This document shows positions 4,061-60,279 of a stretch of DNA of 64,000 bases, in pieces (within the stretch, counting starts at the first letter, position 1; each line of letters opens with the position of its first letter). This DNA comes from a phage. Made by a program: the position numbers and the translations under genes. The DNA is taken from the NCBI GenBank assembly GCA_024682255.1, contig GCA_024682255.1_4716.1, one strand, 5' to 3'. The notes beneath the pieces are model-generated. The model was not told where the DNA came from. It saw nothing but the letters and a program-made list of their open reading frames with translations, and searched no databases.

Positions 4061-4486
4061 TTAATTCAGTGACGCATATAAGGCATAACGACTGTAGATT
4101 TCAACCGCCGGTCCGTTATGCGTTAACAGACCATCCCGGTTGTAATACTGGAAAAATGAATAACGTTTGTCGAAGTGATAAACAAAAGCAATGTCTTTGC
4201 CGTCAAAACCTGTGATGCGTGGTCTGTTTTTATCTAGCAATGCTTTAACTTTTAACAGTGTTGCCGCACGTGCTTTAACGTTAGGGATCAAGCCATCACA
4301 ATCGATATAAACAGTGTAACCTGTTTCAGATGTTGCGACGGTCGTATTGCGATTGACGCGGAAGATTTTTGTTTCGTATGTACTATCTTCAAGAATTGGG
4401 TTTTGTTTTTCGTATTTTCGTTTACGCAGAAATTCTACAACGGTGATATAGTTAGCGGTAATATGCCCGGTTATAGCTTGTAACAT
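4061..4486 (-). CDS. Hypothetical protein (141 aa)
   Basis: ORF with conserved leader ATCCAATATAAAAGGATGTCGAG before ATG. Confidence 0.6.
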   Translation of the reverse strand: MLQAITGHITANYITVVEFLRKRKYEKQNPILEDSTYETKIFRVNRNTTVATSETGYTVYIDCDGLIPNVKARAATLLKVKALLDKNRPRITGFDGKDIAFVYHFDKRYSFFQYYNRDGLLTHNGPAVEIYSRYALYASLN

Positions 4487-4658
4487 CTCGACATCCTTTT
4501 ATATTGGATTGATTGCAATTGTCTTAAATAGATGATAAGATATTTTGCTCTTATCACTAAGGTAACGCTTACGCGTCGCGTTCATGATGCATGGCATCAT
4601 GAAGGTAATGTAGTCGTGAAATAAACTGCGTTAACACGAAATAAAAAACAGCATAGAA

Positions 4659-4690
4659 CCCTCTCCCAACCCGTAAGGGAAGGGAGAGGG
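4659..4690 (-). terminator. Conserved 32-nt hairpin element, copy 1
   Basis: CCCTCTCCC-AACCCGTAAGGGAA-GGGAGAGGG; identical copy at 11827-11858, variant at 51905-51936. Confidence 0.6.
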
Positions 4691-4703
4691 AATATTAAAA
4701 TTG

Positions 4704-11810: not shown

Positions 11811-11826
11811 TGTAAAGGTAACATAA

Positions 11827-11858
11827 CCCTCTCCCAACCCGTAAGGGAAGGGAGAGGG
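11827..11858. terminator. Conserved 32-nt hairpin element, copy 2, between convergent genes
   Basis: Identical to 4659-4690; flanked by CATAA and CTTATGCTGTTATGCTGTT. Confidence 0.65.
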
Positions 11859-11875
11859 CTTATGCTGTTATGCTG

Positions 11876-28786: not shown

Positions 28787-28840
28787 GGTGATTTCCTTCT
28801 TTATTAGGATGATTACATTTAGTCAGTTTAACAGCATAAA

Positions 28841-28865
28841 CCCTTCCTGCCTTACGCAGGAAGGG
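28841..28865 (-). terminator. Terminator hairpin downstream of endolysin gene
   Basis: CCCTTCCTGC-CTTAC-GCAGGAAGGG preceded by CATAAA. Confidence 0.6.
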
Positions 28866-28879
28866 CATACGGATTTGTT

Positions 28880-29377
28880 TTACGTGTGTCGTCGTTTACC
28901 AAAGAAAATGTGACTGTCTACCACGGTGATATTGGTAGCATGTTTTCTGAAATGTTTAGGGCGAAGATGTTTCGCGTTAAAGAATACGGCTCCTCGTGTT
29001 GGGTCGGCTTTATGGTAAGCCGCAATGTCAATATAACGTAATGTTGCGACCTCTCGCGCTATTGCTCTTGCTCGCTCAAAAGCAGCATGATCGCGTATGA
29101 CAATACGCCTTTGTTTTGTCCAGGGGAATTGACCTCTTTGCAGTACGACGTCTTTGACGTTCGTAGGGAATCGGTAGTCCATAGATCGATTATGTATTAA
29201 AAACGCCACGGAGTATTGCCCTTTTACAGATTCGCCTCTGGCTTCCATATACACAGCACATGCGACGATCTCTTTCCGGCAATCGATTCTAGGTCCTGCG
29301 TTCACTGATGCTTGACTGAACGGTGTGATAAGCAACATAACAAGCCCTAAAATCAACGTGTGTAAAATACCTTGCAT
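28880..29377 (-). CDS. Secreted endolysin, SleB/CwlJ-like cell wall hydrolase (Hydrolase_2 family) with N-terminal signal peptide
   Basis: Signal peptide ending SQA-SV; motifs YMEARGES, VAFLIHNR, FPTNVKDVVLQRGQF, GAVFFNAKH matching SleB-type hydrolases; GAGGT RBS. Confidence 0.75.
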   Translation of the reverse strand: MQGILHTLILGLVMLLITPFSQASVNAGPRIDCRKEIVACAVYMEARGESVKGQYSVAFLIHNRSMDYRFPTNVKDVVLQRGQFPWTKQRRIVIRDHAAFERARAIAREVATLRYIDIAAYHKADPTRGAVFFNAKHLRPKHFRKHATNITVVDSHIFFGKRRHT

Positions 29378-29950: not shown

Positions 29951-30290
29951 CCTCGACACGTCGACACATCGGTAAAAATAAACACCAGCTTGTTGCACTG
30001 AGGATCGCCGTTGCGATGATATTTGCGATATCGCTCAGTCGGGCATCGACCTGCCACATAACAAGCATAAAAAGAACGTATGCGAACCCATACACGACAA
30101 ACCGTCTGATGTTACGCGTCGACCACGTACAAATATACAAAAGGGGAAGCTGCCCTATAACACAAACGATGGTTCGGATAACGTAATAAACGCGTTCCGT
30201 CGTTGTTTCAAAATCGATATTCGTTGCAGAAATCCCGATCATTATAAAAGTGAAAATGAAATAGATTTTTGCGTATGTCTTTAAACTCAT
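29919..30290 (-). CDS. Multi-pass membrane protein (123 aa), holin or antiholin candidate
   Basis: Three to four hydrophobic helices; adjacent to holin-like gene and upstream of endolysin. Confidence 0.5.
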   Translation of the reverse strand: MSLKTYAKIYFIFTFIMIGISATNIDFETTTERVYYVIRTIVCVIGQLPLLYICTWSTRNIRRFVVYGFAYVLFMLVMWQVDARLSDIANIIATAILSATSWCLFLPMCRRVEDEGYGYHGES

Positions 30291-30306
30291 GGCTTTTCCC
30301 GATCGT

Positions 30307-30540
30307 TTATTTGTGTTTTCCTACATTCCTCAACAAGGTAACGATAACGAATACCGCTATCATCAAGAAGACGAACCATAACCCTACGTTAATTCGGGCG
30401 GCTGGTACATCCACCATGAAGAACATCGTCCCACAAAACCCAATGACTATCCATGCTAGAACCATCCCTGTTAATCCCCGCAGCAACTTAAGCCAGATCA
30501 TAAACTTCTCCTTACTTTTTCTGATAAAGCGATGATTCAA
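30307..30540 (-). CDS. Small membrane protein with two TM helices (holin-like)
   Basis: Hydrophobic segments LTGMVLAWIVIGFCGTMFFMV and VGLWFVFLMIAVFVIVTLL, basic C-terminus. Confidence 0.5.
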   Translation of the reverse strand: MNHRFIRKSKEKFMIWLKLLRGLTGMVLAWIVIGFCGTMFFMVDVPAARINVGLWFVFLMIAVFVIVTLLRNVGKHK

Positions 30541-30674
30541 ATTTTAGAAACATCCCTAATGCGAATGCGAGTAATAACGCACGTATCCACATACCTCCTT
30601 GACAACTGTTGTACAACATAAAGACCAGAGCGATGCCGCCCATATGCAGGCGGCACTTATCGAACAGTGTTGGT

Positions 30675-30902
30675 TTATACATAAGAGATCAATCGTTGAA
30701 TGATTTTTACTTTGCCTTTACCTGGGCCTTTCTTGCGGCGATTCAACAGACGGATACTGTTTCCAGTTACGGTGTCGCCATCATAATCAGCCCGGAACTG
30801 TGATAAAAAAGCAGGTTGTATCTGATCGACACCAGGATTGCTGTAGAAAGGATTGAGACTTAAAAGAGGGTTAGCTGGAATCATCGTATCGTCCTTACTC
30901 AA
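30675..30902 (-). CDS. Hypothetical small protein (75 aa)
   Basis: ORF immediately downstream of 30903-31253. Confidence 0.35.
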   Translation of the reverse strand: MSKDDTMIPANPLLSLNPFYSNPGVDQIQPAFLSQFRADYDGDTVTGNSIRLLNRRKKGPGKGKVKIIQRLISYV

Positions 30903-31253
30903 TTATTTACCCAGATAGAGGTATTCACCACCCTGAACAACACCGGTTGCTGGATCAACAAGTATACGAACCCGCGCGTAGGTCTTGAAAGAGGGGTTGA
31001 AGACTTCGAAGTCTGCCACTTTCAATTTCACGCTGGGGTTGGTAGGGTTCTTAACTCCGGGAAGTTCTTTCGGGGTACCGAAATCAACACCACATTCTTC
31101 AAGGTCTGCTGGCGTCATGCTCTCCATGGCCATGTAGATTGCTTTTGCTTTATCGTAAACTTCCGGGCTATCCAGCAACCCAGCCTGTGCTGAACCGACA
31201 ACACTACCGAACAGAATAGCAACAGCAACAAACAATTTAGTTAACGTTTTCAT
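30903..31253 (-). CDS. Secreted periplasmic protein (116 aa)
   Basis: Signal peptide MKTLTKLFVAVAILFGSVVGSAQA. Confidence 0.6.
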   Translation of the reverse strand: MKTLTKLFVAVAILFGSVVGSAQAGLLDSPEVYDKAKAIYMAMESMTPADLEECGVDFGTPKELPGVKNPTNPSVKLKVADFEVFNPSFKTYARVRILVDPATGVVQGGEYLYLGK

Positions 31254-31289
31254 GATATTTTCCTCGAAAGTAAAATGTTACAATACCTA

Positions 31290-31712
31290 TTAACGTACGG
31301 CCGCTACGCTGTTAGCGCATGCCTGAATATCATCGGTATTTACGATGATGGTTTCGTTAAACGCACGAATACGCGCACGACGTGCTTCTTTAAGGCTGGC
31401 GATTGCGCTAGCAGCTTGATCTGTATTCGCAAGGCTAATAACCGGGATCAAACGCATATCGGGACTGCAGATATTCAATGCTTGGTATACACGTCCATTG
31501 ATTCCTACGGTATCAGACATCGGATAGTGCGCACGGCATTGAAATTGACCCATGACAACAAGCGAACGATCGGAGATACCAATCTGATAACGACCGTCTT
31601 CGCTGTAGGCGTAACAGTTATTCCCACGAGCCATCCAGTTAGCCTGTGCTTGCGTGCTAACAAAAGCCAGAGTGGTGACGATAGCGAATGCGATATTTTT
31701 GAACAGTTTCAT
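31290..31712 (-). CDS. Secreted periplasmic protein (140 aa)
   Basis: Signal peptide MKLFKNIAFAIVTTLAFVSTQAQA. Confidence 0.6.
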   Translation of the reverse strand: MKLFKNIAFAIVTTLAFVSTQAQANWMARGNNCYAYSEDGRYQIGISDRSLVVMGQFQCRAHYPMSDTVGINGRVYQALNICSPDMRLIPVISLANTDQAASAIASLKEARRARIRAFNETIIVNTDDIQACANSVAAVR

Positions 31713-31772
31713 GATAAAGATCCTCGTTGAAATAAAATCGGTATAAAGGCCCCCCCATTTAGGGGGACCTGA

Positions 31773-32090
31773 TTAGTTTGCACGTAAGAAATGACCCAGA
31801 ACCGTTACGATTGGAAACAGCCCTGTAACAGTATCATCGCCCGAAAACATCATCATTGTTCCGTTAACGGTGATGAAACGGATGTCGGTTGCGGACCCAT
31901 CGATAGCGACAAAACGCATCGAGTTCGGTGGAAGGTCCTCAACAACTTCCACGAGATACTCGCGATTATCAAAGGCTTCTTTAACACGACGCATGAAACG
32001 AATCAATGTTCCTTCCGCGTCGGCTTCCAAATGACCTAAGATATCGCGATTATTACGAATAGCGAATACAGCCATTTTAAACATACTCAT
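31773..32090 (-). CDS. Hypothetical protein (105 aa)
   Basis: ORF with conserved leader ATCCAATATAAAAGGATGTCAAG before ATG; terminator 31748-31769 downstream. Confidence 0.55.
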   Translation of the reverse strand: MSMFKMAVFAIRNNRDILGHLEADAEGTLIRFMRRVKEAFDNREYLVEVVEDLPPNSMRFVAIDGSATDIRFITVNGTMMMFSGDDTVTGLFPIVTVLGHFLRAN

Positions 32091-32156
32091 CTTGACATCC
32101 TTTTATATTGGATTGGTTGCTAATAATTCAAGGTGAAGCTGATTACTGCATTGCTT

Positions 32157-32180
32157 CACCTAAGTAATATAGCCGTGAAA
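32157..32180. promoter_or_regulatory. Conserved 24-nt intergenic motif CACCTAAGTAATATAGCCGTGAAA (copy 1)
   Basis: Near-identical copy at 60177-60200; both upstream of minus-strand gene starts. Confidence 0.4.
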
Positions 32181-32198
32181 ATTAATGTATTAACCTAT

Positions 32199-33155
32199 TC
32201 ACGCTTTTGCTAAGTAGGGTTGGATCTCATTAATCCGTTTAACCACAACCTCAGGGAAAAGTTTGAGTATTTTATCAGGTGGTATTGAACCTTCCGTCCA
32301 ACGATAGCGTTCAACCATCTCAATGCGTGGACTCCCTCCGACGTCAGCGATACGAAAGATACAGGCGATGCCTAAATCGAAGCATACGCTGTAAATATCT
32401 TCCGTACCTCCTTTATCAGCAAGTATTTTCGCAAAATGCTCGTTATCGGGAAGAATGGCTAAATTACGGATACACCAAACATTATTCCCCATTTCTTCAA
32501 GTTTTGGGTAGGTTAAAGTGTGCCCGTATTGCGTTAACCATCGATGATTTTCGAGGTAGAAGTCCTTATCCCCTGGCCGATAACCCAGTATCACTCCCGT
32601 GTAGAAGAGATTGGGCATATCAAGCAGTTCTTGCACTGTCGGGCCGGTATGCTCCCAAAGACAGATTTGTTTACGGTCTATATCGTAATCTGTGACGTTA
32701 CTCACCTCCCAACTTATCGTAAGTTCATCGGCAACGTGCCAACCTAAAGCGTGTTCGCCGCCAAGCAGATTAACAATGGTTGACACTTCATACTTGTCAA
32801 ATACGCCTAAATTACGCGGTGGTTGCATCGTACGTAATGGCTCCCACAGCACACTGTAATCATAGAGCAAATGGCGACATAAACTTTTTGTTAGGGGCGT
32901 CTGTTCAGTGAACAGGGGAAGAATCACCGTATCCAATAACGGGCGTAACGGATGACCATCCGCTGGTAACGGGGCAGCCAGCCGACCTCCTTCTTTGGGG
33001 TAATCGAGACCAAACCCGTAACGCTCCGAAATGAGCGCAATCAACACTTTTGCTACGCGGTTACGTAGCATGCGATGGATATCATCACTGTAACTGAATT
33101 TCGGTTTATTACCGCAAACGAAGGTGAAGTATCTGGGCGTTAGCACAGCCATCAT
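32199..33155 (-). CDS. Hypothetical protein (318 aa)
   Basis: Long ORF. Confidence 0.65.
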   Translation of the reverse strand: MMAVLTPRYFTFVCGNKPKFSYSDDIHRMLRNRVAKVLIALISERYGFGLDYPKEGGRLAAPLPADGHPLRPLLDTVILPLFTEQTPLTKSLCRHLLYDYSVLWEPLRTMQPPRNLGVFDKYEVSTIVNLLGGEHALGWHVADELTISWEVSNVTDYDIDRKQICLWEHTGPTVQELLDMPNLFYTGVILGYRPGDKDFYLENHRWLTQYGHTLTYPKLEEMGNNVWCIRNLAILPDNEHFAKILADKGGTEDIYSVCFDLGIACIFRIADVGGSPRIEMVERYRWTEGSIPPDKILKLFPEVVVKRINEIQPYLAKA

Positions 33156-33162
33156 CTTTCCC

Positions 33163-33609
33163 TCAATCTAAATAGTACGTGATGGATAGGTCTTTTCCAT
33201 CGAATACAATATCCGTGCAGTCGTGAATGGTCGGTAATACCATTTTTGCTGCTATTGGGACGTATGCCTGCAGTTCCATGTAGTTATTCATACGGAACGC
33301 ACGACGCACCATCAACGGCGTTAATGTAAACGTTACGCTGACGTTACCGCTTGGGAGTAGGTGCATTATCGCATGCCCGTGATCACACCAGCAATGGTTT
33401 TCGATCCATCCGGTGTAAATCAGAATGTCTTTATTCTCGTCGTAATAAGCAATGCCTGACTGCTTTAAGTGGCTGGTAAACCGAGAGGCTTGCTCGTAGC
33501 CTGCGCGCAACATTCGAGCAACCAGTCGAGTATTGTTAGCGATTCGATTCTGTTCGTTGGTTTTTGTGGTTTTGAAAATTTCGATACGTTCTGCTTTTGT
33601 AATTTGCAT
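33163..33609 (-). CDS. Hypothetical protein (148 aa)
   Basis: ORF in minus operon. Confidence 0.6.
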   Translation of the reverse strand: MQITKAERIEIFKTTKTNEQNRIANNTRLVARMLRAGYEQASRFTSHLKQSGIAYYDENKDILIYTGWIENHCWCDHGHAIMHLLPSGNVSVTFTLTPLMVRRAFRMNNYMELQAYVPIAAKMVLPTIHDCTDIVFDGKDLSITYYLD

Positions 33610-33686
33610 GGTTACTGTCCTATTGCATTGTGTTTAGATAAGGAGGATTTACCCGGTATTAAAAAGTTATTTGGTGTGTAATGTTT

Positions 33687-34286
33687 TTACTTAGGTTCCA
33701 GTATTGGTCCGAACAACCAGAATGTCAGGCGCTGGTAAACCTGTTCGATGACTGCGGCTTCTGTTTGTTCTTCTAGTGCTTTCCCTTTCTTATGTTGTAT
33801 TTCTGGCGGGATGTCGCCGTTGTAAACATACCCTGTTGAGAAGTCCCACGCCAACCGTTTACCGAAAGTGGGTAAGAACACCTCTTCGAATCGGAACGCT
33901 TTCGAATTCCAATGAAGCAGCTGATCGGATTCAACATGTAAAGCTTTATTACGTTTGCTTGGCATGTTTCCGAAGTACTGAACGATAGCTGATTTCATAA
34001 CCTGATCTGCGAAGTCTTTAGCTTCGGCCTCATCGAGGGGAGGCAGACGATGTGATAGATTCAGCTTGCGTTGTTCAACATCAATCTTACGCATCGCTTT
34101 AATCAAATCACCAGGAACGATTTTACCCTTATGGCCTTCCTGTCGGTGTACGAAACACCCCTGGAATAACACGCAAAGTTCTTGAGGCGCGCTGCTTTCC
34201 ATTCGTCCGTAAGCAACGATCACCGATCGACGACGATCGATAACTTCGCGGATAAACCGCGGCTCAGTAATACTCACCACTGTCAT
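33687..34286 (-). CDS. Hypothetical protein (199 aa)
   Basis: ORF in minus operon. Confidence 0.6.
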   Translation of the reverse strand: MTVVSITEPRFIREVIDRRRSVIVAYGRMESSAPQELCVLFQGCFVHRQEGHKGKIVPGDLIKAMRKIDVEQRKLNLSHRLPPLDEAEAKDFADQVMKSAIVQYFGNMPSKRNKALHVESDQLLHWNSKAFRFEEVFLPTFGKRLAWDFSTGYVYNGDIPPEIQHKKGKALEEQTEAAVIEQVYQRLTFWLFGPILEPK

Positions 34287-37193: not shown

Positions 37194-37657
37194 TTCTTAC
37201 CACGTGTGTTATAATAGTAACGCTGACAAAGATGTGTGTGACGATACTCCCGTTTGAACTCGACGCTAATGATGCGAGCAACTTCTCTCCAGTTAACCCC
37301 TTCACGTCGAAGTGCTGTAATACGGTCTGAAATTTTGCACCATTCATCTGGGTCGTATCGACGTAGCTTAAGTCGTCGTATTACGGAGGCGACGCTCGCT
37401 CTCGATCGGCCAAGATGATTTGACAGCTGTTTAACCGAGTATCTGTGGATATTGTCACGAATATAGGAAATCTCGTTGTTCGTATATGCCTCATTGGTTC
37501 TCGACGAAGGGAACAGCATATACAACTTATTCTTAATCGCGCTTTCTGTGCGTTGAAATACAGCAGCCAGCTCACTAACCGGTGGTCTGGGTATCTGGTC
37601 CGCGTAATTCTCGAGGCGTGAGAGTTCCTCATCTGTCCAGCGACGGTATTTGCGCAT
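37127..37657 (-). CDS. Myb/SANT-like HTH protein, paralog 5
   Basis: Start at ATG 37657 with GGAG RBS; repeats RWTDEELSRL...VSELAAVFQRTESAIKNKL and YSVKQLSNHLGRSRASV. Confidence 0.65.
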   Translation of the reverse strand: MRKYRRWTDEELSRLENYADQIPRPPVSELAAVFQRTESAIKNKLYMLFPSSRTNEAYTNNEISYIRDNIHRYSVKQLSNHLGRSRASVASVIRRLKLRRYDPDEWCKISDRITALRREGVNWREVARIISVEFKREYRHTHLCQRYYYNTRGKKWQQVKNTQQPKSHSYAETRAS

Positions 37658-38132
37658 AGGCAGCTCCTTTGTTTTTCGTGTAGTAACACCAACGTTGATA
37701 CAACGCATGTTTATTCGTTGTAATCCCAAATTTAACAACAACGTCGTAGGTAATAACATCCCAATTTTGGGTGACGTTAAGTCGTTCCGCGATAAACGCG
37801 ATAATCGCTTCCCGTTCTTGCTTGGTGAGCGCACGACGAATTCCGTTAAGCCGTATAAACTGACGAACCGAGTCATACGAACGGTTTAAATCGTACGCAA
37901 TCTCCCGCAGCGATTTTTGTCTGATTACCGACTTGATGTATGCGCGTTCTTCTTCCGTGTACGGCCGATGCTTTTGACGTTGACGTATTCCCAAACGCCC
38001 CAGACGCGCGTCGACGCTGGCGCGTGTTCGTCCTGTCCGTTGCGCAATTTCATCAATCGTCATCGACGTGTTCAAATACAGATGCGTAACATCTTTCAGC
38101 TCGTCGTCACGCCACGGTTGAGATCGTCCCAT
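37629..38132 (-). CDS. Myb/SANT-like HTH protein, paralog 4
   Basis: Repeats WRDDELKDV...IDEIAQRTGRTRASVDARL and YTEEERAYI...LREIAYDLNRSYDSV. Confidence 0.7.
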   Translation of the reverse strand: MGRSQPWRDDELKDVTHLYLNTSMTIDEIAQRTGRTRASVDARLGRLGIRQRQKHRPYTEEERAYIKSVIRQKSLREIAYDLNRSYDSVRQFIRLNGIRRALTKQEREAIIAFIAERLNVTQNWDVITYDVVVKFGITTNKHALYQRWCYYTKNKGAAYAQIPSLDR

Positions 38133-47684: not shown

Positions 47685-48031
47685 GCCATATTCTCCGTTA
47701 TATGCTTTAAACTGTTACGTATACTTTTCAATCGGTGGTTAAATCCGGAACGATAACATTTCCGTACAACCCTTGGCGCTCGCGCTTTATTCGCCTGATG
47801 AAGCTGTTCATTCACCTGCGACGCTATACGTAAACGCTCTAATAAAGACCTCAACCGAACGACAACCAACGGCTGTTCTTTCACCTTCTCTAGTTTGAGT
47901 AAAGAGTCAATATGAAACTTTATATCGATAATCTGATTCCTGTTTTTGCGGTACTGATGAATATACCAACATCGACGAAAATAGGCGATGTTAAGCATAG
48001 GGTAGATCCTCTTCAACGCTATCTCCAACAA
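47681..48031 (-). CDS. Hypothetical basic protein (116 aa)
   Basis: ORF in minus operon. Confidence 0.5.
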   Translation of the reverse strand: MLEIALKRIYPMLNIAYFRRCWYIHQYRKNRNQIIDIKFHIDSLLKLEKVKEQPLVVVRLRSLLERLRIASQVNEQLHQANKARAPRVVRKCYRSGFNHRLKSIRNSLKHITENMA

Positions 48032-48216
48032 TACATCGGATTAGGTGCTTTATGGCATTTATAAATACTTACTTTCTTCTGTCTGCCTTTACCCGGGCCT
48101 CGTTTAATACGTTTGTTATAAACACGATCCAAATATCGATCAACGATAAATCTAGATAAATACACCGGATCGATATATTCTAGTGTACCTGCTTCTGTCA
48201 CTTCGAGGCATTGCAT
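48019..48216 (-). CDS. Hypothetical small basic protein (65 aa)
   Basis: ORF in minus operon. Confidence 0.4.
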   Translation of the reverse strand: MQCLEVTEAGTLEYIDPVYLSRFIVDRYLDRVYNKRIKRGPGKGRQKKVSIYKCHKAPNPMYCWR

Positions 48217-48241
48217 GCGTAACCTCTCTTTCCTCTAAAAG

Positions 48242-48445
48242 TCAGTCCAACATAAGCCACGGCATCGCTTTCGCGATAGAATCCACCGCAGCATTTGCGA
48301 TCCTCCGTTCAGTCGTTGGTACCACATGCGCAACGAACCGTTTCCCTTTATTGCAACCTTTCTTGTGTTTCCCTTTGACTAAACGAACACCAATCATGTC
48401 ATTGATAACATGATTTAGTATGTGGCGCTGTAGAGAATTAATCAT
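48242..48445 (-). CDS. Hypothetical small basic protein (about 67 aa)
   Basis: ORF; ATG 48445. Confidence 0.4.
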   Translation of the reverse strand: MINSLQRHILNHVINDMIGVRLVKGKHKKGCNKGKRFVAHVVPTTERRIANAAVDSIAKAMPWLMLD

Positions 48446-48614
48446 CACTTTTACTCCAGGTAGAGAAGATCCTCGGTTTTAGTTCTATCTGTCCGCATAT
48501 CCAGGTGTATCTCCATTTACCTTTACGAGGACCTTTCTTATTTTTAACACCTATCAGAATACGATAGGGATATGACCAAGCCATTCTAACCTCCTAAAAT
48601 AAATCTCGATATTC

Positions 48615-48941
48615 TTAATGCAGTTGCTTCTTAAAACCTAATTTAAGAAGCGTCATTCTCTTGTCGATGGTATCTAATGCTTCCAGCAAGGATTCACGCT
48701 GTTCTTTCGTAAGCATATCGACGCGGAGACGTTCGTTAATTTCCGCTTTAAGCTGTATAGGAAGAGTTTGTGTAAGTATGCTATCAGCCTCCATCTCGTA
48801 ACTATTTTTCGGTATGGGTAATGCTTCAGTAACACCAGTGAGATAAAAACCGATAGTGGTTACTCGTTCATCCATTGCTTCTAGCAGTTCAGAACTTACT
48901 TCATCCACGATAGTCCTCCGTATTAGGGTGGGCGTACCCAC
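48615..48941 (-). CDS. Hypothetical protein (108 aa)
   Basis: ORF downstream of thymidylate synthase gene; hairpin 48925-48945. Confidence 0.5.
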   Translation of the reverse strand: MGTPTLIRRTIVDEVSSELLEAMDERVTTIGFYLTGVTEALPIPKNSYEMEADSILTQTLPIQLKAEINERLRVDMLTKEQRESLLEALDTIDKRMTLLKLGFKKQLH

Positions 48942-48955
48942 CCCCAGTTGTTAAT

Positions 48956-49975
48956 TTACACCGCCACCTTAGCCTTGATAGCCGGATGTGATTGATATCC
49001 GACGAACACGAAGTCTTCGTAACGGTAATCCGTAATACTTTCCGGTTTACGTACGATCGTTAGCTTCGGTAACGGATACGGTTCACGGCTGAGCTGCTCT
49101 TTAACCTGTTCGAAGTGGTTGTGATAGATGTGGCAGTCTCCACCCGTCCACACGAACTCGCCAACATCCATATTCAGCTGTTGGGCAAGCATGTGCGTTA
49201 GCAACGAATATGATGCGATGTTGAACGGTGTTCCGAGTAGCACGTCCTGTGATCTCGCGGTCAACATACACGACAAGGCACGCGTCGGTACGTTATGTGC
49301 ATTCAACCAAAGTTCCGTTTCACTATGTCGTACATCATCCGTAACCCACTGAGTTCTTAGTACGTCGTTACGTTGGACATAATCAACGCGTTCATCGATC
49401 GTGAGTTTGTGGGTATAGAACTGATAGAAACTGTGGCATGCGGGAAGCGCCATATCGTCTAAATCACCTACGTTCCACGCGCTAACGATGATCCGTCGAG
49501 AATCAGGATCTTCTTTAAGCTGGCGCATCACGTTTGCAATCTGATCGTGAGGTTTAACATACAAGAGATGTTTGACCATACCGGCGTCAACAACACCGCA
49601 ATACTCATAGCCGCGTTGCATCAACTCACGAGTACGTTCTGTATCGTGCGGAACAACCACTTTGTAGTCGATCCATTCCCGCCATTGTTTGCCGTAAATT
49701 GGTCCTAGATTCCCTTCTTCGTCAGCCCATTCATTCCAAATACGAACACCGTTATCTTGAAGATAAGCAACGTTTGTGTCACCGTTAAGAAACCAGAGCA
49801 GTTCGTGGATAACGCTCTTAAGGTGAATCTTCTTGGTGGTTACCAGCGGGAATCCTTTCTTCAAGTCAAAACGCATCTGACGTCCGAATACGGAACGGGT
49901 CCCGGTGCCTGTACGATCAGCTTTATCGCGACCGTTATCCATGATGTCTTGCAAAAGGTCCAAATACTGTTTCAT
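48956..49975 (-). CDS. thyA: Thymidylate synthase (ThyA family) with two insertions
   Basis: Motifs [41 protein letters not shown], catalytic Cys in [23 protein letters not shown]; 339 aa versus 264 in E. coli. Confidence 0.9.
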
Positions 49976-50175
49976 TTTAATCCTCTAAGTGTTTCAAGTA
50001 GTTCCTGAAATTTATAACGATATTTAGAATCACGTAACGTGTAACAGCAACCAAGTAACACGTTATACGCGTAATCAACTTGTAAACCACGAACCTTCGG
50101 ATCTGACGAAAGATTCAATTGTACATCATCAAAAATCCACGCTTCAACGTTCCTCTTGTGTTCCTTCGTTAACAT
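49972..50175 (-). CDS. Hypothetical small protein (about 67 aa)
   Basis: ORF 49972-50184; ATG 50175 with GAGGTG RBS; overlaps thyA start by 4 nt. Confidence 0.5.
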
Positions 50176-50306
50176 CGTTTTCACCTCGTCGTAAAAGTAA
50201 ATAGAGTTTTGTCGAGACGCCCTAATTACTTACAACGTCGGTTCCCCCGGCTTCAGAGAATTCTCAAAATCCGTTAGTTTTGATAGACAGGGTAAGACGG
50301 CATAAA

Positions 50307-50327
50307 AGCCTCCCGTAACGGGAGGCT
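50307..50327 (-). terminator. Terminator-like hairpin
   Basis: AGCCTCCCG-TAA-CGGGAGGCT preceded by CATAAA. Confidence 0.55.
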
Positions 50328-50339
50328 CCATTAATCAGT

Positions 50340-50888
50340 TTATTTCACAAGAACAGCGAATTCGAGAACGTAAATATTCTCGTCATCCATCGGATTTGTC
50401 GTGGTATAACCAACGAAACAATAACCCATATCCACGATAAATTCATTAAGTTTATCGATGGCCGATGCCTGGATGCGATCGTCAACAGACAAACAGCATT
50501 TACGGGTTATGTTCCGCCCACGAGGAACGCCAGCTAACACGCACAGGAAATGCACAATCCGGTTATTGGTTGCGAACTGCGCGTAATCATTGTAGCGTTT
50601 AAGGTCTTTCATCGTAGACTCTACCGTCATACGGCGACCGGGCGACACGTACTCAGAATAAGAATAAGCTGTGATTGTACGACGGTCTTCAGTTAAGTAA
50701 GTGTTCCCTTCGGGGTAGTAGTCTACGCCATCGCCATCAGCATCCACCACGGTTACAACAGGTGCACCGTACTCGTTACGATCAAAGTAAACTTTGCTCT
50801 TTTCCGAAATAGGAACGATAGTGCAAGGTTTTGCGTTGTTCTCATCTGGAAGATCGTAACCGCTCATCATTTTCAAAAACATAGACAT
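50340..50888 (-). CDS. Paralog family protein A (182 aa)
   Basis: Homologous along its length to 50975-51508 (shared NNAKP, TITAYSYS, conserved C-terminal half). Confidence 0.65.
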   Translation of the reverse strand: MSMFLKMMSGYDLPDENNAKPCTIVPISEKSKVYFDRNEYGAPVVTVVDADGDGVDYYPEGNTYLTEDRRTITAYSYSEYVSPGRRMTVESTMKDLKRYNDYAQFATNNRIVHFLCVLAGVPRGRNITRKCCLSVDDRIQASAIDKLNEFIVDMGYCFVGYTTTNPMDDENIYVLEFAVLVK

Positions 50889-50974
50889 AATAGAACCTCA
50901 TGATAATAGATAATAGAAATGATAGATAGTACAACAAATTGAGGGGGTATTATCCCACCCCCTCGTAGGGATTA

Positions 50975-51508
50975 CTACTTAACGATCGCGATGATTTTAC
51001 CGGCCGCACCGGCGTAATATGCCGTTAATTCACCAGTAAACAACTCTTGTAAAAGACGATTTACGTGACTAACAAAGTTAGGATTGTCTGATTTTACAAA
51101 CTCGATATTGCGCGTTTGTTTTATATCACGATCGATTAAACGGATTTCTAACAACGCACAAATAAGGCGATCGTCGAGTTTACCACTCGTATCCAACACT
51201 TCCCCATACGTCGTAGCACGGACGTCCGCATACATACGGTCAACATCATCCTTCCCAAAACCACAGGAATAGGCGTACGTTGCGATGGTATTACCGTTGT
51301 CCATCACGTAAACGTTACCGCCCGGGTAATCGATAAATCGTTGATCCTTATCGCCATGAGCGACGAACTCCAGTGTCGGTCTACCCATCGAATCACGGTT
51401 GAATTCAATTGTGGTCAAGCGATCTGGTACCACATGCAACGTAAACGGTTTTGCATTGTTACGATCGCTAGTATCACAGTTAGCCATTACTTTTACAATA
51501 ACACTCAT
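50975..51508 (-). CDS. Paralog family protein B (177 aa)
   Basis: Homologous to 50340-50888. Confidence 0.65.
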   Translation of the reverse strand: MSVIVKVMANCDTSDRNNAKPFTLHVVPDRLTTIEFNRDSMGRPTLEFVAHGDKDQRFIDYPGGNVYVMDNGNTIATYAYSCGFGKDDVDRMYADVRATTYGEVLDTSGKLDDRLICALLEIRLIDRDIKQTRNIEFVKSDNPNFVSHVNRLLQELFTGELTAYYAGAAGKIIAIVK

Positions 51509-51582
51509 GTTTTATTCCTTAGTAGTCCTAGTAGTAGTATTGAGGAATTTCACCTCATTAGATAGTCTAATTTAGTAATGTT

Positions 51583-51915
51583 TTACTGAAACAAGACATT
51601 AAATTCGACGAGATACCCATCGGATCTATCGCCGCGATATCTGTTGCAGAAAACACCGAATTTCATCAAGAACTCGCATAACTCTTCGGCTTTGTATAAC
51701 GGAATACGATTTTCGTCGAGCAGAGGACACTTATGGCTAACCCGCTCCGACGAATCAACGCAACACAAATAAAGAAGGAATCGAACAATAGCTCGGTTCT
51801 TAGTGAAGCTCTCGAATTCACCCGCGGTTCTGAACTCATCGAGGAGCTTTGTCGTTTTCTTCAATCGTTCACGATCAAGCATGTTAACCTCAATACGAAC
51901 ATAACCCTCCTCCAA
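51583..51915 (-). CDS. Paralog family protein C (110 aa; C-terminal domain only)
   Basis: Aligns with C-terminal halves of paralogs A and B (NR.IV.FL..L, C.L.D..RI, Y..EF.VL). Confidence 0.6.
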   Translation of the reverse strand: MEEGYVRIEVNMLDRERLKKTTKLLDEFRTAGEFESFTKNRAIVRFLLYLCCVDSSERVSHKCPLLDENRIPLYKAEELCEFLMKFGVFCNRYRGDRSDGYLVEFNVLFQ

Positions 51916-51936
51916 CCCATCAGGGAAGGAGGAGGG
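51905..51936 (-). terminator. Conserved 32-nt hairpin element, copy 3 (variant)
   Basis: CCCTCCTCC-AACCCATCAGGGAA-GGAGGAGGG with the same CATAA and ATATGCTGTTATTCTGTT flanks as copies 1-2. Confidence 0.6.
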
Positions 51937-51945
51937 AATATGCTG

Positions 51946-52260
51946 TTATTCTGTTTTCGGTGTCGAACCGTTCTTCTTGAAGTCGGATTCGTATTTCACG
52001 TTAGAATCGAGAACCTCACGAACGGTTTTATCTGTACAACCACGGGCGATGTATGCATTAAGATCGTCGCGTAATTTACGCATCGTTGTTTTATCCGCAT
52101 CAGAAATATCTGACTTGGTAAGACGGAATGCAATTGCATCACGAACTTTATTCAGCGTTGCTGGATTATTACGCTGTTCTGCAAATACCGCTTTGATGAA
52201 TGTACCGCTATCTTTCGAAGCGATGGCGGCATCAAGAATTTCAATATGCTTTTCAGACAT
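51946..52260 (-). CDS. Hypothetical protein (104 aa)
   Basis: ORF in minus operon. Confidence 0.55.
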   Translation of the reverse strand: MSEKHIEILDAAIASKDSGTFIKAVFAEQRNNPATLNKVRDAIAFRLTKSDISDADKTTMRKLRDDLNAYIARGCTDKTVREVLDSNVKYESDFKKNGSTPKTE

Positions 52261-52311
52261 CTTCTTTCCTTTAATAAACGATCATCGTCATATTCATTGC
52301 GCAGGGTGCTA

Positions 52312-53637
52312 TCACTTCAGTAGCTTAGACGTCGCCATGCTTCGCGCTAACGCAACGTCATACGCATCCATGATCGCGTCACCGATAGCGGTATGACGGA
52401 TCAACGGAATACCCATGTCTGGATACTCTTTGGTGCCTAAGATGGATACCGGTTTGTCTTGATACGCAGCAATCATCGAACGGATATCCTGAACCTGGTT
52501 ATAACGACAAACTGGCTTAAAGCCCGCTTTACGGAACCAATGCTCTAATTGAGGCCAATCTGTTTCACCGCGAGCAAGATAATAGAAGGTATCTTTACCG
52601 TAGTATTCAGTCATTTTGTCACGAATACTGTTGACGAACGCATTTACTTCGGCGATGGCTTCTTTATAACCCATTGCCTTACAATGTTGAAAACAATAGT
52701 CGCGCGCTTCCTTTGGTGCTTTGGTTTGCCACCATTCTACTGTTGATTCACTGATACGACCGCCGTCAGCGATTTGACCATGAACGTCAGGGAAGATATC
52801 TATACGCGGACCGTTAACAATGGATTCTGGATTAGCCAGATCGAAGAACACGATACCGATTTCCAGCAATACTCCATTCTTTTCCAGACTAAGGTTTTCA
52901 ACATCTAAACAAAATGCAGGCTTCTCTACCGCTAACGGCTCGAACGAATGGTTGCTGGTATCCGATTCGGTTTTAAGTTCGACGACAACCGGATCGGTAT
53001 CCGTAGGTTTCAGTTCTACTACAGCATCATCGAGTCCCGATAACGAAAAATAGTCTTCGAAGAAATCGGGTATCGTCATACCATGCAAATTGATATCGCA
53101 ATCTTCCAACCATTGCTTCAACTGGTGCTCACCGGCATGAATCGCTAAACGACATGGTCCGGAACGATCATCTAGCGCTGCATCGATCCAGAAGAAAGCA
53201 CGTATAAGTAAGTAAGGATTATACTCCGCGATGATTTCTTGGCTAGCCGAGAAATCGTACACCATTAGTTGTATTATTCCCTTACGTGTGTTATACGGAT
53301 CAACTTTCAATCGACGCACTATTTCTTCTACGAATTCCAGCGCACGCGTGTACGATGTGGACCCACCTTGTTCATACGAACATATACCCGTCAAAAGTTC
53401 CTTATAGGACGCATATGGAACCATAGGCGATAATTTGTACGACAGTTCAGTATTGTAATTATCGCATAATTTCTTCGGGGCGATAGCATCCTGTATCGCT
53501 GTAATAAACGCCGGTCCATCAATATCAAACAACCATCCTTGACGCCGGTATGCAGTGTATCGTAATAACGCACCGATAACTGCCTGGGGCGGTGTATATT
53601 CTTTCCCGTTAATTTCAAACAGTAGTTTGCTCATCAT
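52312..53637 (-). CDS. Two-domain protein (441 aa): unknown N-terminal domain fused to DEDDh-type 3'-5' exonuclease domain
   Basis: C-terminal half carries Exo I-like LDVENLSLE and Exo III-like HTAIGDAIMDAYDVA (H.A..DA) motifs. Confidence 0.6.
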   Translation of the reverse strand: MMSKLLFEINGKEYTPPQAVIGALLRYTAYRRQGWLFDIDGPAFITAIQDAIAPKKLCDNYNTELSYKLSPMVPYASYKELLTGICSYEQGGSTSYTRALEFVEEIVRRLKVDPYNTRKGIIQLMVYDFSASQEIIAEYNPYLLIRAFFWIDAALDDRSGPCRLAIHAGEHQLKQWLEDCDINLHGMTIPDFFEDYFSLSGLDDAVVELKPTDTDPVVVELKTESDTSNHSFEPLAVEKPAFCLDVENLSLEKNGVLLEIGIVFFDLANPESIVNGPRIDIFPDVHGQIADGGRISESTVEWWQTKAPKEARDYCFQHCKAMGYKEAIAEVNAFVNSIRDKMTEYYGKDTFYYLARGETDWPQLEHWFRKAGFKPVCRYNQVQDIRSMIAAYQDKPVSILGTKEYPDMGIPLIRHTAIGDAIMDAYDVALARSMATSKLLK

Positions 53638-53649
53638 AACACCTTTTCA

Positions 53650-53985
53650 TTATTCTGGTTTATCTGTTGTCAGGCCGAGTCCAGTCAATATCGCGTAGTC
53701 GTACCAAGCTTTTACTTTTGCTTTCGCTTCATCTAAACTATCGGCGTTGATGTGTGGAAACTCATCGTTGACTGGGAAAGGTAAATCGCAGTCGTAGCTG
53801 GTATAATCCTTCCAACCTTTCCACTCGATAGTTAAAGAACCAAAAACGGTCTCAGCGACAACATGGTTATAGCGGCATTCTTCACATGGCGTACGCTCTT
53901 CCGACCAAACAAGCTCGTGTTGCGCTAAAAGTTGTTGTACGACCGATAATGGCTGCTCTTCATTAAGTTCGATGCTGTCTATCAT
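53650..53985 (-). CDS. Hypothetical protein (111 aa)
   Basis: ORF; 4-nt overlap with upstream gene. Confidence 0.5.
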   Translation of the reverse strand: MIDSIELNEEQPLSVVQQLLAQHELVWSEERTPCEECRYNHVVAETVFGSLTIEWKGWKDYTSYDCDLPFPVNDEFPHINADSLDEAKAKVKAWYDYAILTGLGLTTDKPE

Positions 53986-54578: not shown

Positions 54579-54864
54579 TATGAAGTCTCCTTAATGTTTC
54601 TTGTATACGCAGTCTCTCCGGCAGGTACAGACGTTTGTATAGATCAACTAACAGATAACGCATAACGGAAGCAACCACCAGGTATTCACCTTCAGCTTCC
54701 GAATAACGTATCATGTTAATTGGGTAATTCAAATAAGAATAAGAAAAGAGATCATCGTTGGTGAGGCGATGATCTTCAAGATACTGACGAAACAATTTTG
54801 CTAAGGCATCGTACTCCATTCCGTAGTAACACAACGACACCTGTCTTGCAGATAGTCGTTTCAT
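54562..54864 (-). CDS. Hypothetical protein (100 aa)
   Basis: ORF in coupled operon. Confidence 0.5.
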   Translation of the reverse strand: MKRLSARQVSLCYYGMEYDALAKLFRQYLEDHRLTNDDLFSYSYLNYPINMIRYSEAEGEYLVVASVMRYLLVDLYKRLYLPERLRIQETLRRLHSERFT

Positions 54865-55703: not shown

Positions 55704-55718
55704 ACCGAGACTCCTTTG

Positions 55719-56938: not shown

Positions 56939-56953
56939 CCACCTCCCTCCATG

Positions 56954-57475: not shown

Positions 57476-57529
57476 TCTTTCGATTCCTATTAAAAGTGAC
57501 CGATTTCTGTGGTCGAGATTGCTAATAAA

Positions 57530-57991: not shown

Positions 57992-58038
57992 GTCCTATAC
58001 GAACATGAAAAACCGTTAATTTTTACCGTAGTCGTGTG

Positions 58039-58314: not shown

Positions 58315-58351
58315 CTTTATCTCCTTAACAGGTGCTGGTAACGCAGCATAA

Positions 58352-60127: not shown

Positions 60128-60176
60128 CGCACGTACCTCTTTGAATCGGTAGATAGATTAATAGATATTGATTACT

Positions 60177-60200
60177 CACGTAAGTAATATAGCCGTGAAA
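60177..60200. promoter_or_regulatory. Conserved 24-nt intergenic motif CACGTAAGTAATATAGCCGTGAAA (copy 2)
   Basis: 23/24 identity with 32157-32180; in divergent intergenic region. Confidence 0.4.
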
Positions 60201-60279
60201 GGATTTGTGTTGGTCCGCCTCGATGCCCATCGTATTTTATGGATTGTCGAATGACGTCATTTTAAGGGACATCCCCGGC

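What the first reader, a model, noticed from the sequence alone, without database searches (positions are those of the whole stretch)
32088..32180. Conserved intergenic motifs: a 24-nt box and a conserved gene leader, each present twice
CAC(C/G)TAAGTAATATAGCCGTGAAA occurs at 32157-32180 and 60177-60200, both about 55-75 nt upstream of minus-strand starts. A separate leader (minus-strand sense AATCCAATATAAAAGGATGTC(A/G)AGATG) precedes genes 4061-4486 and 31773-32090 (plus-strand 4484-4520 and 32088-32124). Neither fits a clean sigma70 -35/-10 pair, so they may be phage-specific promoters or regulator binding sites, possibly for the Myb-like proteins.
Basis: seen in the sequence. Interest (0 to 1): 0.45.

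Follow-up and report, generated by a model that had tools for sequence, protein, structure and literature searches.

The report
Early promoters of a Goslar-like jumbo phage
The 24-nt box is most likely the start signal that a giant E. coli phage's own injected RNA polymerase uses to switch on its first genes. This signal type is already known from phage phiKZ, and the second "leader" motif is a ribosome-binding stretch shared by two of those early genes.

Summary
Both repeats are real and non-random. The window is about 95% identical to Escherichia phage Goslar, a 237-kb nucleus-forming chimallivirus that encodes its own multisubunit RNA polymerases.

The box, read on the minus strand, is TTTCACGnC-TAyATTACyT-nnn-TGA. 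It occurs three times in the window, not two, with cores at 4603-4612, 32162-32171 and 60182-60191. The complete Goslar genome has 13 copies. All are on the coding strand upstream of genes, including the nuclear-shell gene chimallin, which is followed by an RNAP subunit gene.

The box is nearly the same as the phiKZ early-promoter sequence. Upstream of the phiKZ chimallin gene the sequence is AAAAAAATTTGAGATTTATATTACTAAATTGA. The geometry also matches AR9 (TATATTAT-6N-G+1). I therefore read it as the virion-RNAP early promoter, with starts predicted near 32157, 60177 and 4598.

The leader is not a promoter. It is the last 28 nt of the 5' UTR, containing AAGGA, 7 nt and then ATG. Exactly two unrelated single-gene early units share it, at the same distance from the predicted start.

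No link to Myb/HTH proteins was found. This is a new member of a known kind. No transcript data exist for this phage.

The parts
32155..32193 (-). Early promoter upstream of gene 31773-32090. The core TATATTACTT is at 32162-32171, TTTCACG at 32174-32180 and TGA at 32156-32158. The predicted start is the G at 32157.
   Evidence: Scores 46.1 bits with the PWM built from the Goslar sites; the shuffle maximum is 13. The site is conserved in Goslar and in UViG_3300011560 while the flanking sequence varies.
32131..32161 (-). Inverted repeat AGGTGAAGC-13 nt-GCTTCACCT at the predicted 5' end of the transcript. The repeat begins 4 nt upstream of the predicted +1 G.
   Evidence: The 40-nt fold gives -12.8 kcal/mol. 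In UViG_3300011560 both arms are identical but 5 of the 13 loop bases differ.
32088..32124 (-). Shared leader, which is the translation initiation region: CAATCCAATATAAAAGGATGTCAAG followed by ATG at 32088-32090. AAGGA lies 7 nt before the ATG.
   Evidence: Exact 22-nt repeat, with 27 of 28 bases identical to the copy at 4484-4511. Only two copies per genome. In Goslar it starts at +42/+44 from the predicted start.
31773..32090 (-). Single-gene early ORF of 105 aa (homologue of Goslar gp105). Function unknown.
   Evidence: ORF list. No Pfam or PHROG match. 99% identical to the Goslar protein.
31730..31769 (-). Terminator-like hairpin GGTCCCCC-TAAAT-GGGGGGGCC followed by TTTATACCGATTTTATTT. It closes the single-gene unit.
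   Evidence: Read directly from the sequence. The simple terminator scan did not flag it.
60175..60213 (-). Early promoter upstream of the HD-domain gene 59441-60127. The core is at 60182-60191 and the predicted start is the G at 60177. The 5' UTR is 50 nt with no strong hairpin.
   Evidence: Scores 42.1 bits. Coordinates. HD domain E=2.6e-07. Fold z-score +1.5. The next strong minus-strand terminator-like hairpin is at 50964-50941.
4596..4634 (-). The core TACATTACCT is at 4603-4612 and the predicted start is the G at 4598.
   Evidence: Scores 46.8 bits. Three mismatches to the box. It sits directly after the terminator at 4643-4691.
4560..4602 (-). A 43-bp insertion between the promoter core and the ancestral start region. 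It carries an 8-9 bp hairpin and ends in a repeat of TTACCT.
   Evidence: Absent at this locus in Goslar and in UViG_3300045988. An identical copy lies at a non-orthologous early promoter in UViG_3300011560 (L014).
4529..4559 (-). Inverted repeat (TA)GTGATAAGA-8 nt-TCTTATCA(TCTA). In Goslar this is the transcript's 5' hairpin.
   Evidence: In UViG_3300045988 the stem is kept but the loop changes from GCAAAATA to CATCGGGT.
4484..4520 (-). Second copy of the shared leader, CAATCCAATATAAAAGGATGTCGAG followed by ATG, in front of gene 4061-4486 (141 aa, homologue of Goslar gp75).
   Evidence: The two downstream proteins are unrelated.
4643..4691 (-). Intrinsic terminator of the upstream unit: a GC-rich stem-loop followed by GTTCTATGCTGTTTTTT. 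This is the phiKZ-type stem-loop plus TTAT/TATG signature.
   Evidence: The phiKZ terminator motif is quoted in PMC10914365.

Best explanation
The window comes from a Goslar-like nucleus-forming jumbo phage (Chimalliviridae).

The box is the early promoter of this phage group. It spans about 25-39 bp and reads, on the coding (minus) strand, (TAAT..CA)-TTTCACGnC-TAyATTACyT-nnn-TGA. By analogy with phiKZ and AR9, the virion-packaged multisubunit RNA polymerase that is injected with the DNA recognises it. Initiation should occur about 7 nt after TAyATTAC, at the conserved G. That places the predicted starts at 32157, 60177 and 4598 on the minus strand.

In the window, the three copies drive two short single-gene early units (4061-4486 and 31773-32090) and a longer unit that begins with an HD-domain gene (59441-60127).

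The leader is the last ~28 nt of the 5' UTR of the two single-gene units. It consists of an A/U-rich stretch, the Shine-Dalgarno AAGGA, 7 nt, and AUG. It acts as a shared translation-initiation cassette. Common descent plus gene conversion or selection keeps the two copies identical.

What is shown: the sequence family, its strand and position bias, its conservation, and its similarity to the phiKZ and AR9 early promoters. What is inferred: which polymerase uses it, the exact start site, early timing in this phage, and the reason the leader stays identical.
For: Identity of the phage:
- The window is 95.2% identical to Goslar.
- It encodes an RNAP beta-like subunit at 6438-7739 (phrog_2962, E=6e-106).
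- Goslar carries several annotated beta/beta' genes.

The motif family:
- TAYATTACYTNNNTG occurs 3 times in the window and 13 times in Goslar, always on the minus strand.
- PWM scores are 29-50 bits against a shuffle maximum of 13, and the score distribution is bimodal.
- All sites lie upstream of minus-strand genes (annotation).
- One site precedes Goslar gp189, which RefSeq annotates as the nuclear shell protein. The next gene is the RNAP beta' homologue gp188.

Cross-phage match:
- phiKZ gp054 (chimallin) is preceded by GAAAAAAATTTGAGATTTATATTACTAAATTGA. Goslar gp189 is preceded by TTGAAAAAAATTTCAGGGTTATATTACCTAGGTGA.
- The Goslar PWM ranks this phiKZ site first in 41 kb of phiKZ (22.9 bits; shuffle maximum 15.4).

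Literature:
- PHIKZ054 has the early-promoter motif at its primary start site. That motif is an extended -10 box plus a T-rich tract upstream of -19 (PMC8244752).
- Every RNAP-encoding jumbo phage has a ~10-nt AT-rich motif centred near -10 upstream of early operons. Wherever tested, this motif proved to be the early promoter (PMC7598289).
- The AR9 early consensus is AAATATATATTAT-(6N)-G+1. phiKZ and phiR1-37 start 6 nt after their consensus elements (PMC5312081).

Conservation:
- The exact TTTCACGTCTATATTACTTGGGTGA is kept in 214-228 kb IMG/VR phages. One of these (L011) shows 22-47% protein-level identity to Goslar structural genes.

Leader:
- There are two copies per genome, at +42/+44 from the predicted start.
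- The downstream proteins are unrelated.
- In UViG_3300011560 both copies carry the same AAAAGG-to-AAGAGG change.
Against: - No 5'-end or time-course data exist for this phage or for Goslar. I found no paper describing Goslar early promoters.
[quoted passage not shown] Even in the model phages, the link between this polymerase and the motif is inferential.
- Goslar has only 13-15 sites, against 28-32 early promoters reported for phiKZ.
- One window site also resembles a weak sigma70 promoter (9/12).
- Inverted repeats at many sites begin 1-4 nt upstream of the predicted +1 G. The start may therefore be misplaced by a few nucleotides.
- With only two copies, the leader could simply be a recent gene-conversion tract with no special function.
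Confidence: 0.78

Rival explanations
1. The box is a host sigma70 promoter, used by E. coli RNA polymerase for the phage's early genes.
For: TATATT and TACATT resemble a -10 hexamer. The scan found TTAATA-16-TATATT (9/12) at 32193..32166.
Against: - The invariant positions (TTTCACG in the 'spacer', ACYT after the hexamer, TGA at the start) are not sigma70 features.
- The -35-like TTAATA is TCAACG in UViG_3300011560, while the rest of the site is unchanged.
- Sigma70-like sites are depleted in 48-60.4 kb (10 found, 25 expected).
- The homologous phiKZ motif works independently of host RNAP (PMC5312081 and PMC7598289).
Confidence: 0.06
2. The box is an operator for a phage DNA-binding regulator, such as the reader's 'Myb-like'/HTH proteins, rather than a promoter.
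For: The window encodes an HTH-type protein at 37629-38132 (Sigma70_r4_2 E=4e-06; PHROG 'transcriptional regulator'). Inverted repeats lie next to many sites.
Against: - The box itself is asymmetric and strictly strand-oriented (13 of 13).
- It sits at a fixed distance upstream of genes and matches experimentally supported early promoters of phiKZ and AR9.
- The adjacent palindromes differ in sequence between sites.
Confidence: 0.04
3. The box is a promoter, but for the non-virion RNAP (middle or late class) rather than the virion RNAP.
For: No timing data exist for this phage. In phiKZ, chimallin also has a secondary middle-class start (PMC8244752).
Against: - Middle and late promoters of phiKZ are weak or very short: TACT near -22, or TATG at +1. 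They cannot be found bioinformatically (PMC7598289; PMC8244752).
- This motif is long and strongly conserved, and it aligns with the phiKZ early motif.
Confidence: 0.08
4. The shared leader, possibly together with the 5' inverted repeat, is a dedicated post-transcriptional control site. It could be bound by a phage RNA-binding protein or translational repressor that co-regulates the two single-gene early units. On this view it is more than a ribosome-binding site.
For: - Within a genome, 27 of 28 bases are identical, while the rest of the two UTRs share only about half their bases.
- The same A-to-G change appears in both copies in UViG_3300011560.
- The leader sits at the same distance from the predicted start in both units.
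- ChmC of PhiPA3 crosslinks to phage mRNAs mainly near start codons (bioRxiv 10.1101/2023.09.22.559000).
Against: - There are only two copies, and the leader was not found outside the close Goslar clade. The one other IMG/VR hit is a chance match inside coding sequence.
- The leader has no significant structure of its own (z = -0.9).
- Gene conversion alone explains the concerted change.
Confidence: 0.15

Closest known systems
phiKZ early (virion-RNAP) promoters: 28-32 sites with an AT-rich extended -10 element
   Same: - The core TATATTAC is the same, with a T-rich tract upstream and a conserved TG 5 nt after the core.
- Both occur in multiple co-oriented copies upstream of early operons.
- Both sit in front of chimallin followed by an RNAP subunit gene.
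- Both phages encode two multisubunit RNAPs.
   Different: - The Goslar type has a G/C-containing block TTTCACGnC where phiKZ has TTTGAGATy.
- It tolerates TACATTAC and has an invariant ACyT...TGA.
- Only 13-15 copies were found.
- No start sites have been mapped for Goslar-like phages.
AR9 early promoters: AAATATATATTAT-(6N)-G+1
   Same: The core is TATATTA(T/C), followed by six bases and a conserved G. In AR9 that G is the mapped start site (PMC5312081).
   Different: AR9 has uracil-containing DNA and forms no nucleus. Its upstream part is purely A/T, and the phages are very distant.
Promoters of single-subunit phage RNAPs (T7/SP6 23-nt promoters; phiKMV-like 20-nt motif)
   Same: These too are long, nearly invariant phage-specific motifs repeated through the genome and ending at the start site (for example the LUZ19 motif in PMC10914365).
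   Different: A different polymerase class reads them, and there is no sequence similarity. This phage encodes split beta/beta' subunits (annotation).
N4 virion-RNAP hairpin promoters
   Same: An injected virion polymerase transcribes the early genes, and inverted repeats are associated with the promoter.
   Different: - N4 uses a single-subunit polymerase.
- From my own knowledge of N4, its hairpin lies upstream of +1 and is itself the recognition element.
- Here the repeats lie at or after the start, differ in sequence between sites, and are missing at about half the sites.
E. coli sigma70 promoters
   Same: There is a -10-like TAyATT and, at some sites, a weak -35-like TTAAT(A/C) at 16-17 bp.
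   Different: Conservation peaks outside the sigma70 hexamers. The -35-like part is not conserved in a relative.

Membership tests
Early (virion-RNAP) promoters of phiKZ-related / Chimalliviridae jumbo phages | The genome encodes its own multisubunit RNAPs (virion and non-virion sets). | tested here: met
   Window 6438-7739 matches the PHROG for RNAP beta subunit (E=6e-106). The 95%-identical Goslar genome carries several annotated beta/beta' homologues. I did not test which set is packaged in the virion.
Early (virion-RNAP) promoters of phiKZ-related / Chimalliviridae jumbo phages | A ~10-nt AT-rich, highly conserved element centred near -10, with a T-rich tract upstream (PMC7598289; PMC8244752). 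| tested here: met
   TAyATTACyT is invariant in 13 of 13 Goslar sites and 3 of 3 window sites, with TTT at -23..-21. It has the same core as the phiKZ sites.
Early (virion-RNAP) promoters of phiKZ-related / Chimalliviridae jumbo phages | Many copies per genome, co-oriented with and upstream of presumed early operons. | tested here: met
   All 13 Goslar sites are on the coding strand. Twelve are intergenic and one lies inside a doubtful 62-aa ORF. The window has 3 sites, all upstream of minus-strand genes.
Early (virion-RNAP) promoters of phiKZ-related / Chimalliviridae jumbo phages | Precedes genes known to be early in model phages (chimallin, non-virion RNAP subunits). | tested here: met
   The Goslar site at 172978 precedes gp189, the nuclear shell protein, followed by gp188, the RNAP beta' homologue. 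This locus lies outside the window.
Early (virion-RNAP) promoters of phiKZ-related / Chimalliviridae jumbo phages | A primary transcript 5' end about 6-7 nt after the element, present early, independent of host RNAP and of new protein synthesis. | not testable with these tools
   No transcriptome data for Goslar-like phages were found. The start at the G of TGA is inferred from AR9 and phiKZ geometry.
sigma70-dependent host promoters | -35 TTGACA and -10 TATAAT hexamers 16-18 bp apart, with conservation concentrated in the hexamers. | tested here: not met
   The best match is 9/12, at one site only. Information content peaks at TTTCACG, ATTACyT and TGA. The -35-like hexamer is not conserved in UViG_3300011560.
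Known cis-regulatory RNA families (Rfam) | A match to a curated covariance model in the 5' UTRs. | tested here: not met
   The only gathering-level hit in the window is a group I intron at 1-280. I did not run the more permissive E-value search.
Shine-Dalgarno translation initiation region (for the leader) | A purine-rich anti-SD complement 5-10 nt upstream of the start codon, lying inside the transcribed 5' UTR. | tested here: met
   AAGGA lies 7 nt before the ATG in both copies. The leader is 42-44 nt downstream of the predicted start in Goslar. Translation itself was not tested.

The most novel reading that the evidence does not exclude
About half of the early promoters in Goslar-like phages carry an inverted repeat that straddles the predicted start site. 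These repeats, together with the shared leader at two units, may be a functional layer of early-gene control specific to injected-polymerase transcription. One possibility is a 5'-terminal stem-loop that stabilises or marks mRNAs made before the phage nucleus exists. Another is a DNA hairpin that helps the virion RNAP open or escape the promoter.

Supporting observations:
- The stems are enriched: 6 of 13 sites have a stem of at least 7 bp, against 10% of control positions (p about 9e-4).
- Stems are kept while loops are replaced in relatives.
- One A-T to G-C double change occurs at position -2.
- The repeats start 1-4 nt upstream of the predicted +1.
Probability: 0.2. Interest if true: 0.55.

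Novelty: new member of a known kind. Interest (0 to 1): 0.3.

Why it matters
This gives the Goslar clade a usable early-promoter consensus and three predicted early transcription units in the window. Goslar is the E. coli model for nucleus-forming phages.

The consensus marks which ORFs of unknown function are likely to be made first, when the phage takes over the host and counters its defences. It also provides a compact early-expression cassette (promoter, 5' stem, leader) for engineering these phages, in the way the phiKZ consensus early promoter is already used (PMC12676376).

The motif persists across phages whose proteins have diverged to about 25-45% identity. That shows how tightly the motif is tied to the virion polymerase, whose promoter-recognition mechanism is still unknown.

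None of this overturns current understanding.

Tried and rejected
- **Core alone:** GTAATATA by itself is not enriched in the window (3 found, 2.6 expected). Only the extended motif carries signal.
- **Paralogy as the reason for the shared leader:** rejected. BLASTP finds no alignment between the two downstream proteins, and neither has a Pfam or PHROG family.
- **Leader as a promoter for the second polymerase:** by inspection it has neither the phiKZ middle (TACT) nor late (TATG) signature. With two copies per genome it does not look like a promoter class.
- **Leader in other phages:** an IMG/VR scan found it only in the Goslar clade, plus one chance match inside coding sequence.
- **Antisense partner for the leader:** none found on either strand at up to 8 mismatches.
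- **Palindrome AATGACGTCATT at 60250-60261:** not significant (28 of 100 shuffles).
- **Rfam:** nothing in the UTRs.
- **Literature access:** Ceyssens et al. 2014 could not be read, and supplementary start-site tables for phiKZ are not held. The exact phiKZ +1 position therefore comes from secondary statements.
- **Tool hiccup:** the first two Python calls failed because the loci are stored together in one file.

Full report
**Observation**

CACCTAAGTAATATAGCCGTGAAA is at 32157-32180 and CACGTAAGTAATATAGCCGTGAAA is at 60177-60200. A 19-nt core is exact at both places.

Chance expects 0.01 matches, and no shuffle reached 3.

The leader GACATCCTTTTATATTGGATTG is exact at 4490-4511 and 32094-32115, with a chance expectation of 0.00. 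It runs up to the ATG codons of the minus-strand ORFs 4061-4486 and 31773-32090.

The third box copy lies upstream of the first leader. The two motifs are therefore parts of the same transcription units, and 32088-32180 is one complete promoter plus 5' UTR.

**Source of the window**

Window 30000-34000 is 95.2% identical to Escherichia phage vB_EcoM_Goslar over 99% of its length. Goslar is a 237-kb member of the nucleus-forming jumbo phages (Chimalliviridae).

The window encodes an RNA polymerase beta-like subunit at 6438-7739 (phrog_2962, E=6e-106). Goslar carries several annotated beta/beta' homologues.

Phages of this group carry two multisubunit RNA polymerases. One is packaged in the virion and transcribes the early genes. 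The other is made after infection (PMC7598289; PMC13282480).

**The box is one member of a genome-wide family**

Read on the minus (coding) strand, the box is TTTCACGGCTATATTACTTAGGTG.

I fetched the whole Goslar genome. The pattern TAYATTACYTNNNTG occurs 13 times there and 3 times in the window, always on the minus strand.

A PWM built from the 13 Goslar sites gives the 39-nt consensus nTAAtnCAnnnnnTTTCACGnCTAyATTACyTnnnTGAn. The 13 sites score 29-50 bits. Two weaker candidates score 18-21 bits, and shuffled genomes reach at most 13 bits. The window has exactly three sites, scoring 42-47 bits.

Every Goslar site lies upstream of a minus-strand gene (annotation). Several follow directly after a terminator hairpin.

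One site (Goslar 172978) precedes gp189, which RefSeq annotates as the nuclear shell protein, chimallin. The next gene downstream is the RNAP beta' homologue gp188.

**Match to known early promoters**

In phiKZ, the chimallin gene gp054 is likewise followed by an RNAP subunit gene, gp055. It is preceded by GAAAAAAATTTGAGATTTATATTACTAAATTGA. Goslar gp189 is preceded by TTGAAAAAAATTTCAGGGTTATATTACCTAGGTGA.

In a 41-kb piece of phiKZ, TATATTAC occurs 7 times on the coding strand and never on the other strand. Five of these sit in front of genes with the extended context TTTnAGATyTATATTAC-5N-TG.

Scanned over this piece, the Goslar PWM ranks these phiKZ sites on top. The gp054 site is best at 22.9 bits, against a shuffle maximum of 15.4.

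The literature supplies the functional link:
- PHIKZ054 has the early-promoter motif at its primary start site. That motif is described as an extended -10 box plus a T-rich tract upstream of -19, found at 32 start sites (PMC8244752).
- Every RNAP-encoding jumbo phage has a ~10-nt AT-rich conserved motif centred near -10 upstream of early operons. Wherever transcripts were profiled, it proved to be the early promoter (PMC7598289).
- AR9 early promoters read AAATATATATTAT-(6N)-G+1. phiKZ and phiR1-37 start 6 nt after their consensus elements (PMC5312081).

The element here has the same geometry: TAyATTAC, six bases, then an invariant G. By this analogy I predict starts at the G of TGA: 32157, 60177 and 4598 on the minus strand. 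The resulting 5' UTRs are 67, 50 and 112 nt.

**Conservation**

An IMG/VR scan for TTTCACGNCTAYATTACYT found the motif in Goslar itself, in two close relatives, and in several 214-228 kb contigs.

The contigs carry TTTCACGTCTATATTACTTGGGTGA in front of unrelated small genes. One of them (L011) shares only 22-47% protein-level identity with Goslar structural genes, in the same gene order. The motif is therefore retained over a distance at which proteins have diverged strongly.

At the 32171 locus, the relative UViG_3300011560 keeps CATTAATTTTCACGGCTATATTAC-TAGGTGA. The sequence just upstream, including the sigma70-like TTAATA, is changed to TCAACG.

**The leader**

The 28-mer CAATCCAATATAAAAGGATGTC(A/G)AGATG has two copies in the window and two in Goslar, and nothing else within 8 mismatches on either strand.

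It contains AAGGA 7 nt before the ATG. In Goslar it begins at +42 and +44 from the predicted starts.

The two downstream proteins are unrelated and match no family. Both genes are single-gene units bracketed by a promoter and a terminator-like hairpin.

The rest of the two UTRs is only loosely similar, so the identity is concentrated in the ribosome-binding part. In UViG_3300011560 both copies read AAGAGG instead of AAAAGG. This is a concerted change that points to gene conversion or joint selection.

The leader has no significant structure of its own (z = -0.9), and the window's UTRs have no Rfam match. An IMG/VR scan found it only in the Goslar clade.

I therefore read the leader as a shared translation-initiation cassette, not as a promoter or operator. 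A special regulatory role remains possible but is untested.

**Mechanism**

On injection, the virion RNA polymerase recognises the ~25-39 bp element and starts at or near the conserved G.

In the window this yields two short single-gene early transcripts (genes 4061-4486 and 31773-32090). It also yields a longer unit that starts with the HD-domain gene 59441-60127 (HD, E=2.6e-07). That unit may run to the terminator-like hairpin at 50964-50941.

The sequence family, its orientation, its conservation and its similarity to experimentally supported promoters are shown. The identity of the polymerase, the exact +1 and the early timing are inferred.

**Rivals**

- A sigma70 promoter is unlikely. 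Conservation peaks outside the hexamers, the -35-like part is not conserved, and sigma70-like sites are depleted locally.
- An operator for an HTH/'Myb-like' protein has no support. The motif is asymmetric and strictly oriented, and the neighbouring palindromes differ from site to site.
- Use by the non-virion polymerase cannot be excluded without timing data. However, the middle and late promoters of phiKZ are weak or minimal and look nothing like this.

**Unexplained feature**

Many sites carry an inverted repeat right at the predicted start. With the 5' arm allowed to begin between -4 and +2, 6 of the 13 Goslar sites have a stem of at least 7 bp. Only 10% of all NNNTGA positions in the genome do (binomial p = 9e-4). 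A 40-nt folding-energy test gives p = 0.016.

At 32131-32161, the stem AGGTGAAGC/GCTTCACCT is identical in UViG_3300011560 while 5 of the 13 loop bases differ. At 4529-4559, the stem is kept in UViG_3300045988 while the loop is replaced. Between Goslar 49732 and L020 there is an A-T to G-C double change at position -2.

The repeats begin 1-4 nt upstream of the predicted +1. Either the true start lies slightly upstream of the G, or the repeats act on DNA. The third window site (60191) has no such stem.

**Verdict**

The 'phage-specific promoter' idea is right for the box, wrong for the leader, and the Myb link is unsupported.

This is a new member of a known kind: early promoters of phiKZ-related phages. 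I found no published description for Goslar-like phages in the searchable library. Interest is modest.

Noticed in passing
window 4560-4602 (minus strand): A 43-bp insertion (TCATGATGCCATGCATCATGAACGCGACGCGTAAGCGTTACCT) sits between the promoter core and the ancestral start region and repeats the last 6 bp of the core (TTACCT). Goslar and UViG_3300045988 lack it at this locus. An identical copy sits at a different, non-orthologous early promoter in UViG_3300011560 (L014), and a diverged version lies at Goslar 226695. This suggests recombination between promoters or a small mobile insert.
   Followed up: partly
window 32131-32161 and 4529-4559; Goslar sites 2567, 49732, 86705, 113797, 160791, 226695: Inverted repeats straddle the predicted transcription start, beginning at -4..-1. 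They are enriched over control positions (6 of 13 versus 10%). Relatives keep the stems while the loops change, and there is one A-T to G-C double change. Their role is unknown, and they may mean the start lies a few nt upstream of the conserved G.
   Followed up: partly
window minus strand ~4643-4691, ~5614-5665, ~28830-28880, ~50296-50345; plus strand ~11815-11868: GC-rich stem-loops are followed by (T)TTATGCYGT. This is the same signature as the conserved intrinsic terminator motif reported for phiKZ (stem-loop plus TTAT..GT; PMC10914365). Terminator signals, like early promoters, appear to be shared across chimalliviruses.
   Followed up: partly
window 1-280 (plus strand): Rfam group I intron match (59.8 bits, E=1e-12), cut off by the start of the window. 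By coordinate mapping, the corresponding Goslar region holds a NUMOD1/HNH endonuclease ORF next to a DNA polymerase exonuclease-domain gene. The Goslar record annotates no intron there.
   Followed up: no
window 48000-60400: Sigma70-like promoter matches are fewer than expected (10 found; 25 ± 5 in shuffles). This would fit a phage that does not rely on the host polymerase.
   Followed up: no
window 60262-60310 (plus strand): A strong hairpin followed by TTTTTAT (CCTCCTCCCCA-GGAAAGGT-GTGGGGAGGAG) lies between the divergent HD-hydrolase gene and the helicase gene. Goslar annotates the equivalent as a plus-strand terminator, although no plus-strand gene lies upstream of it. Its role is unclear.
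   Followed up: no
Goslar 49584-49772 (L002), outside the window: The annotated 62-aa ORF Goslar_00047 contains a full early promoter (core at 49732) and its 5' hairpin. The ORF call is therefore probably spurious.
   Followed up: no
Goslar 151634 (L005), outside the window: A weaker promoter-like site (21 bits, CCTACATAACCTAAGGGAA) lies about 100 nt upstream of the RNAP beta-like gene gp165. It resembles the variant site at 187639 and may be a degenerate early promoter.
   Followed up: no
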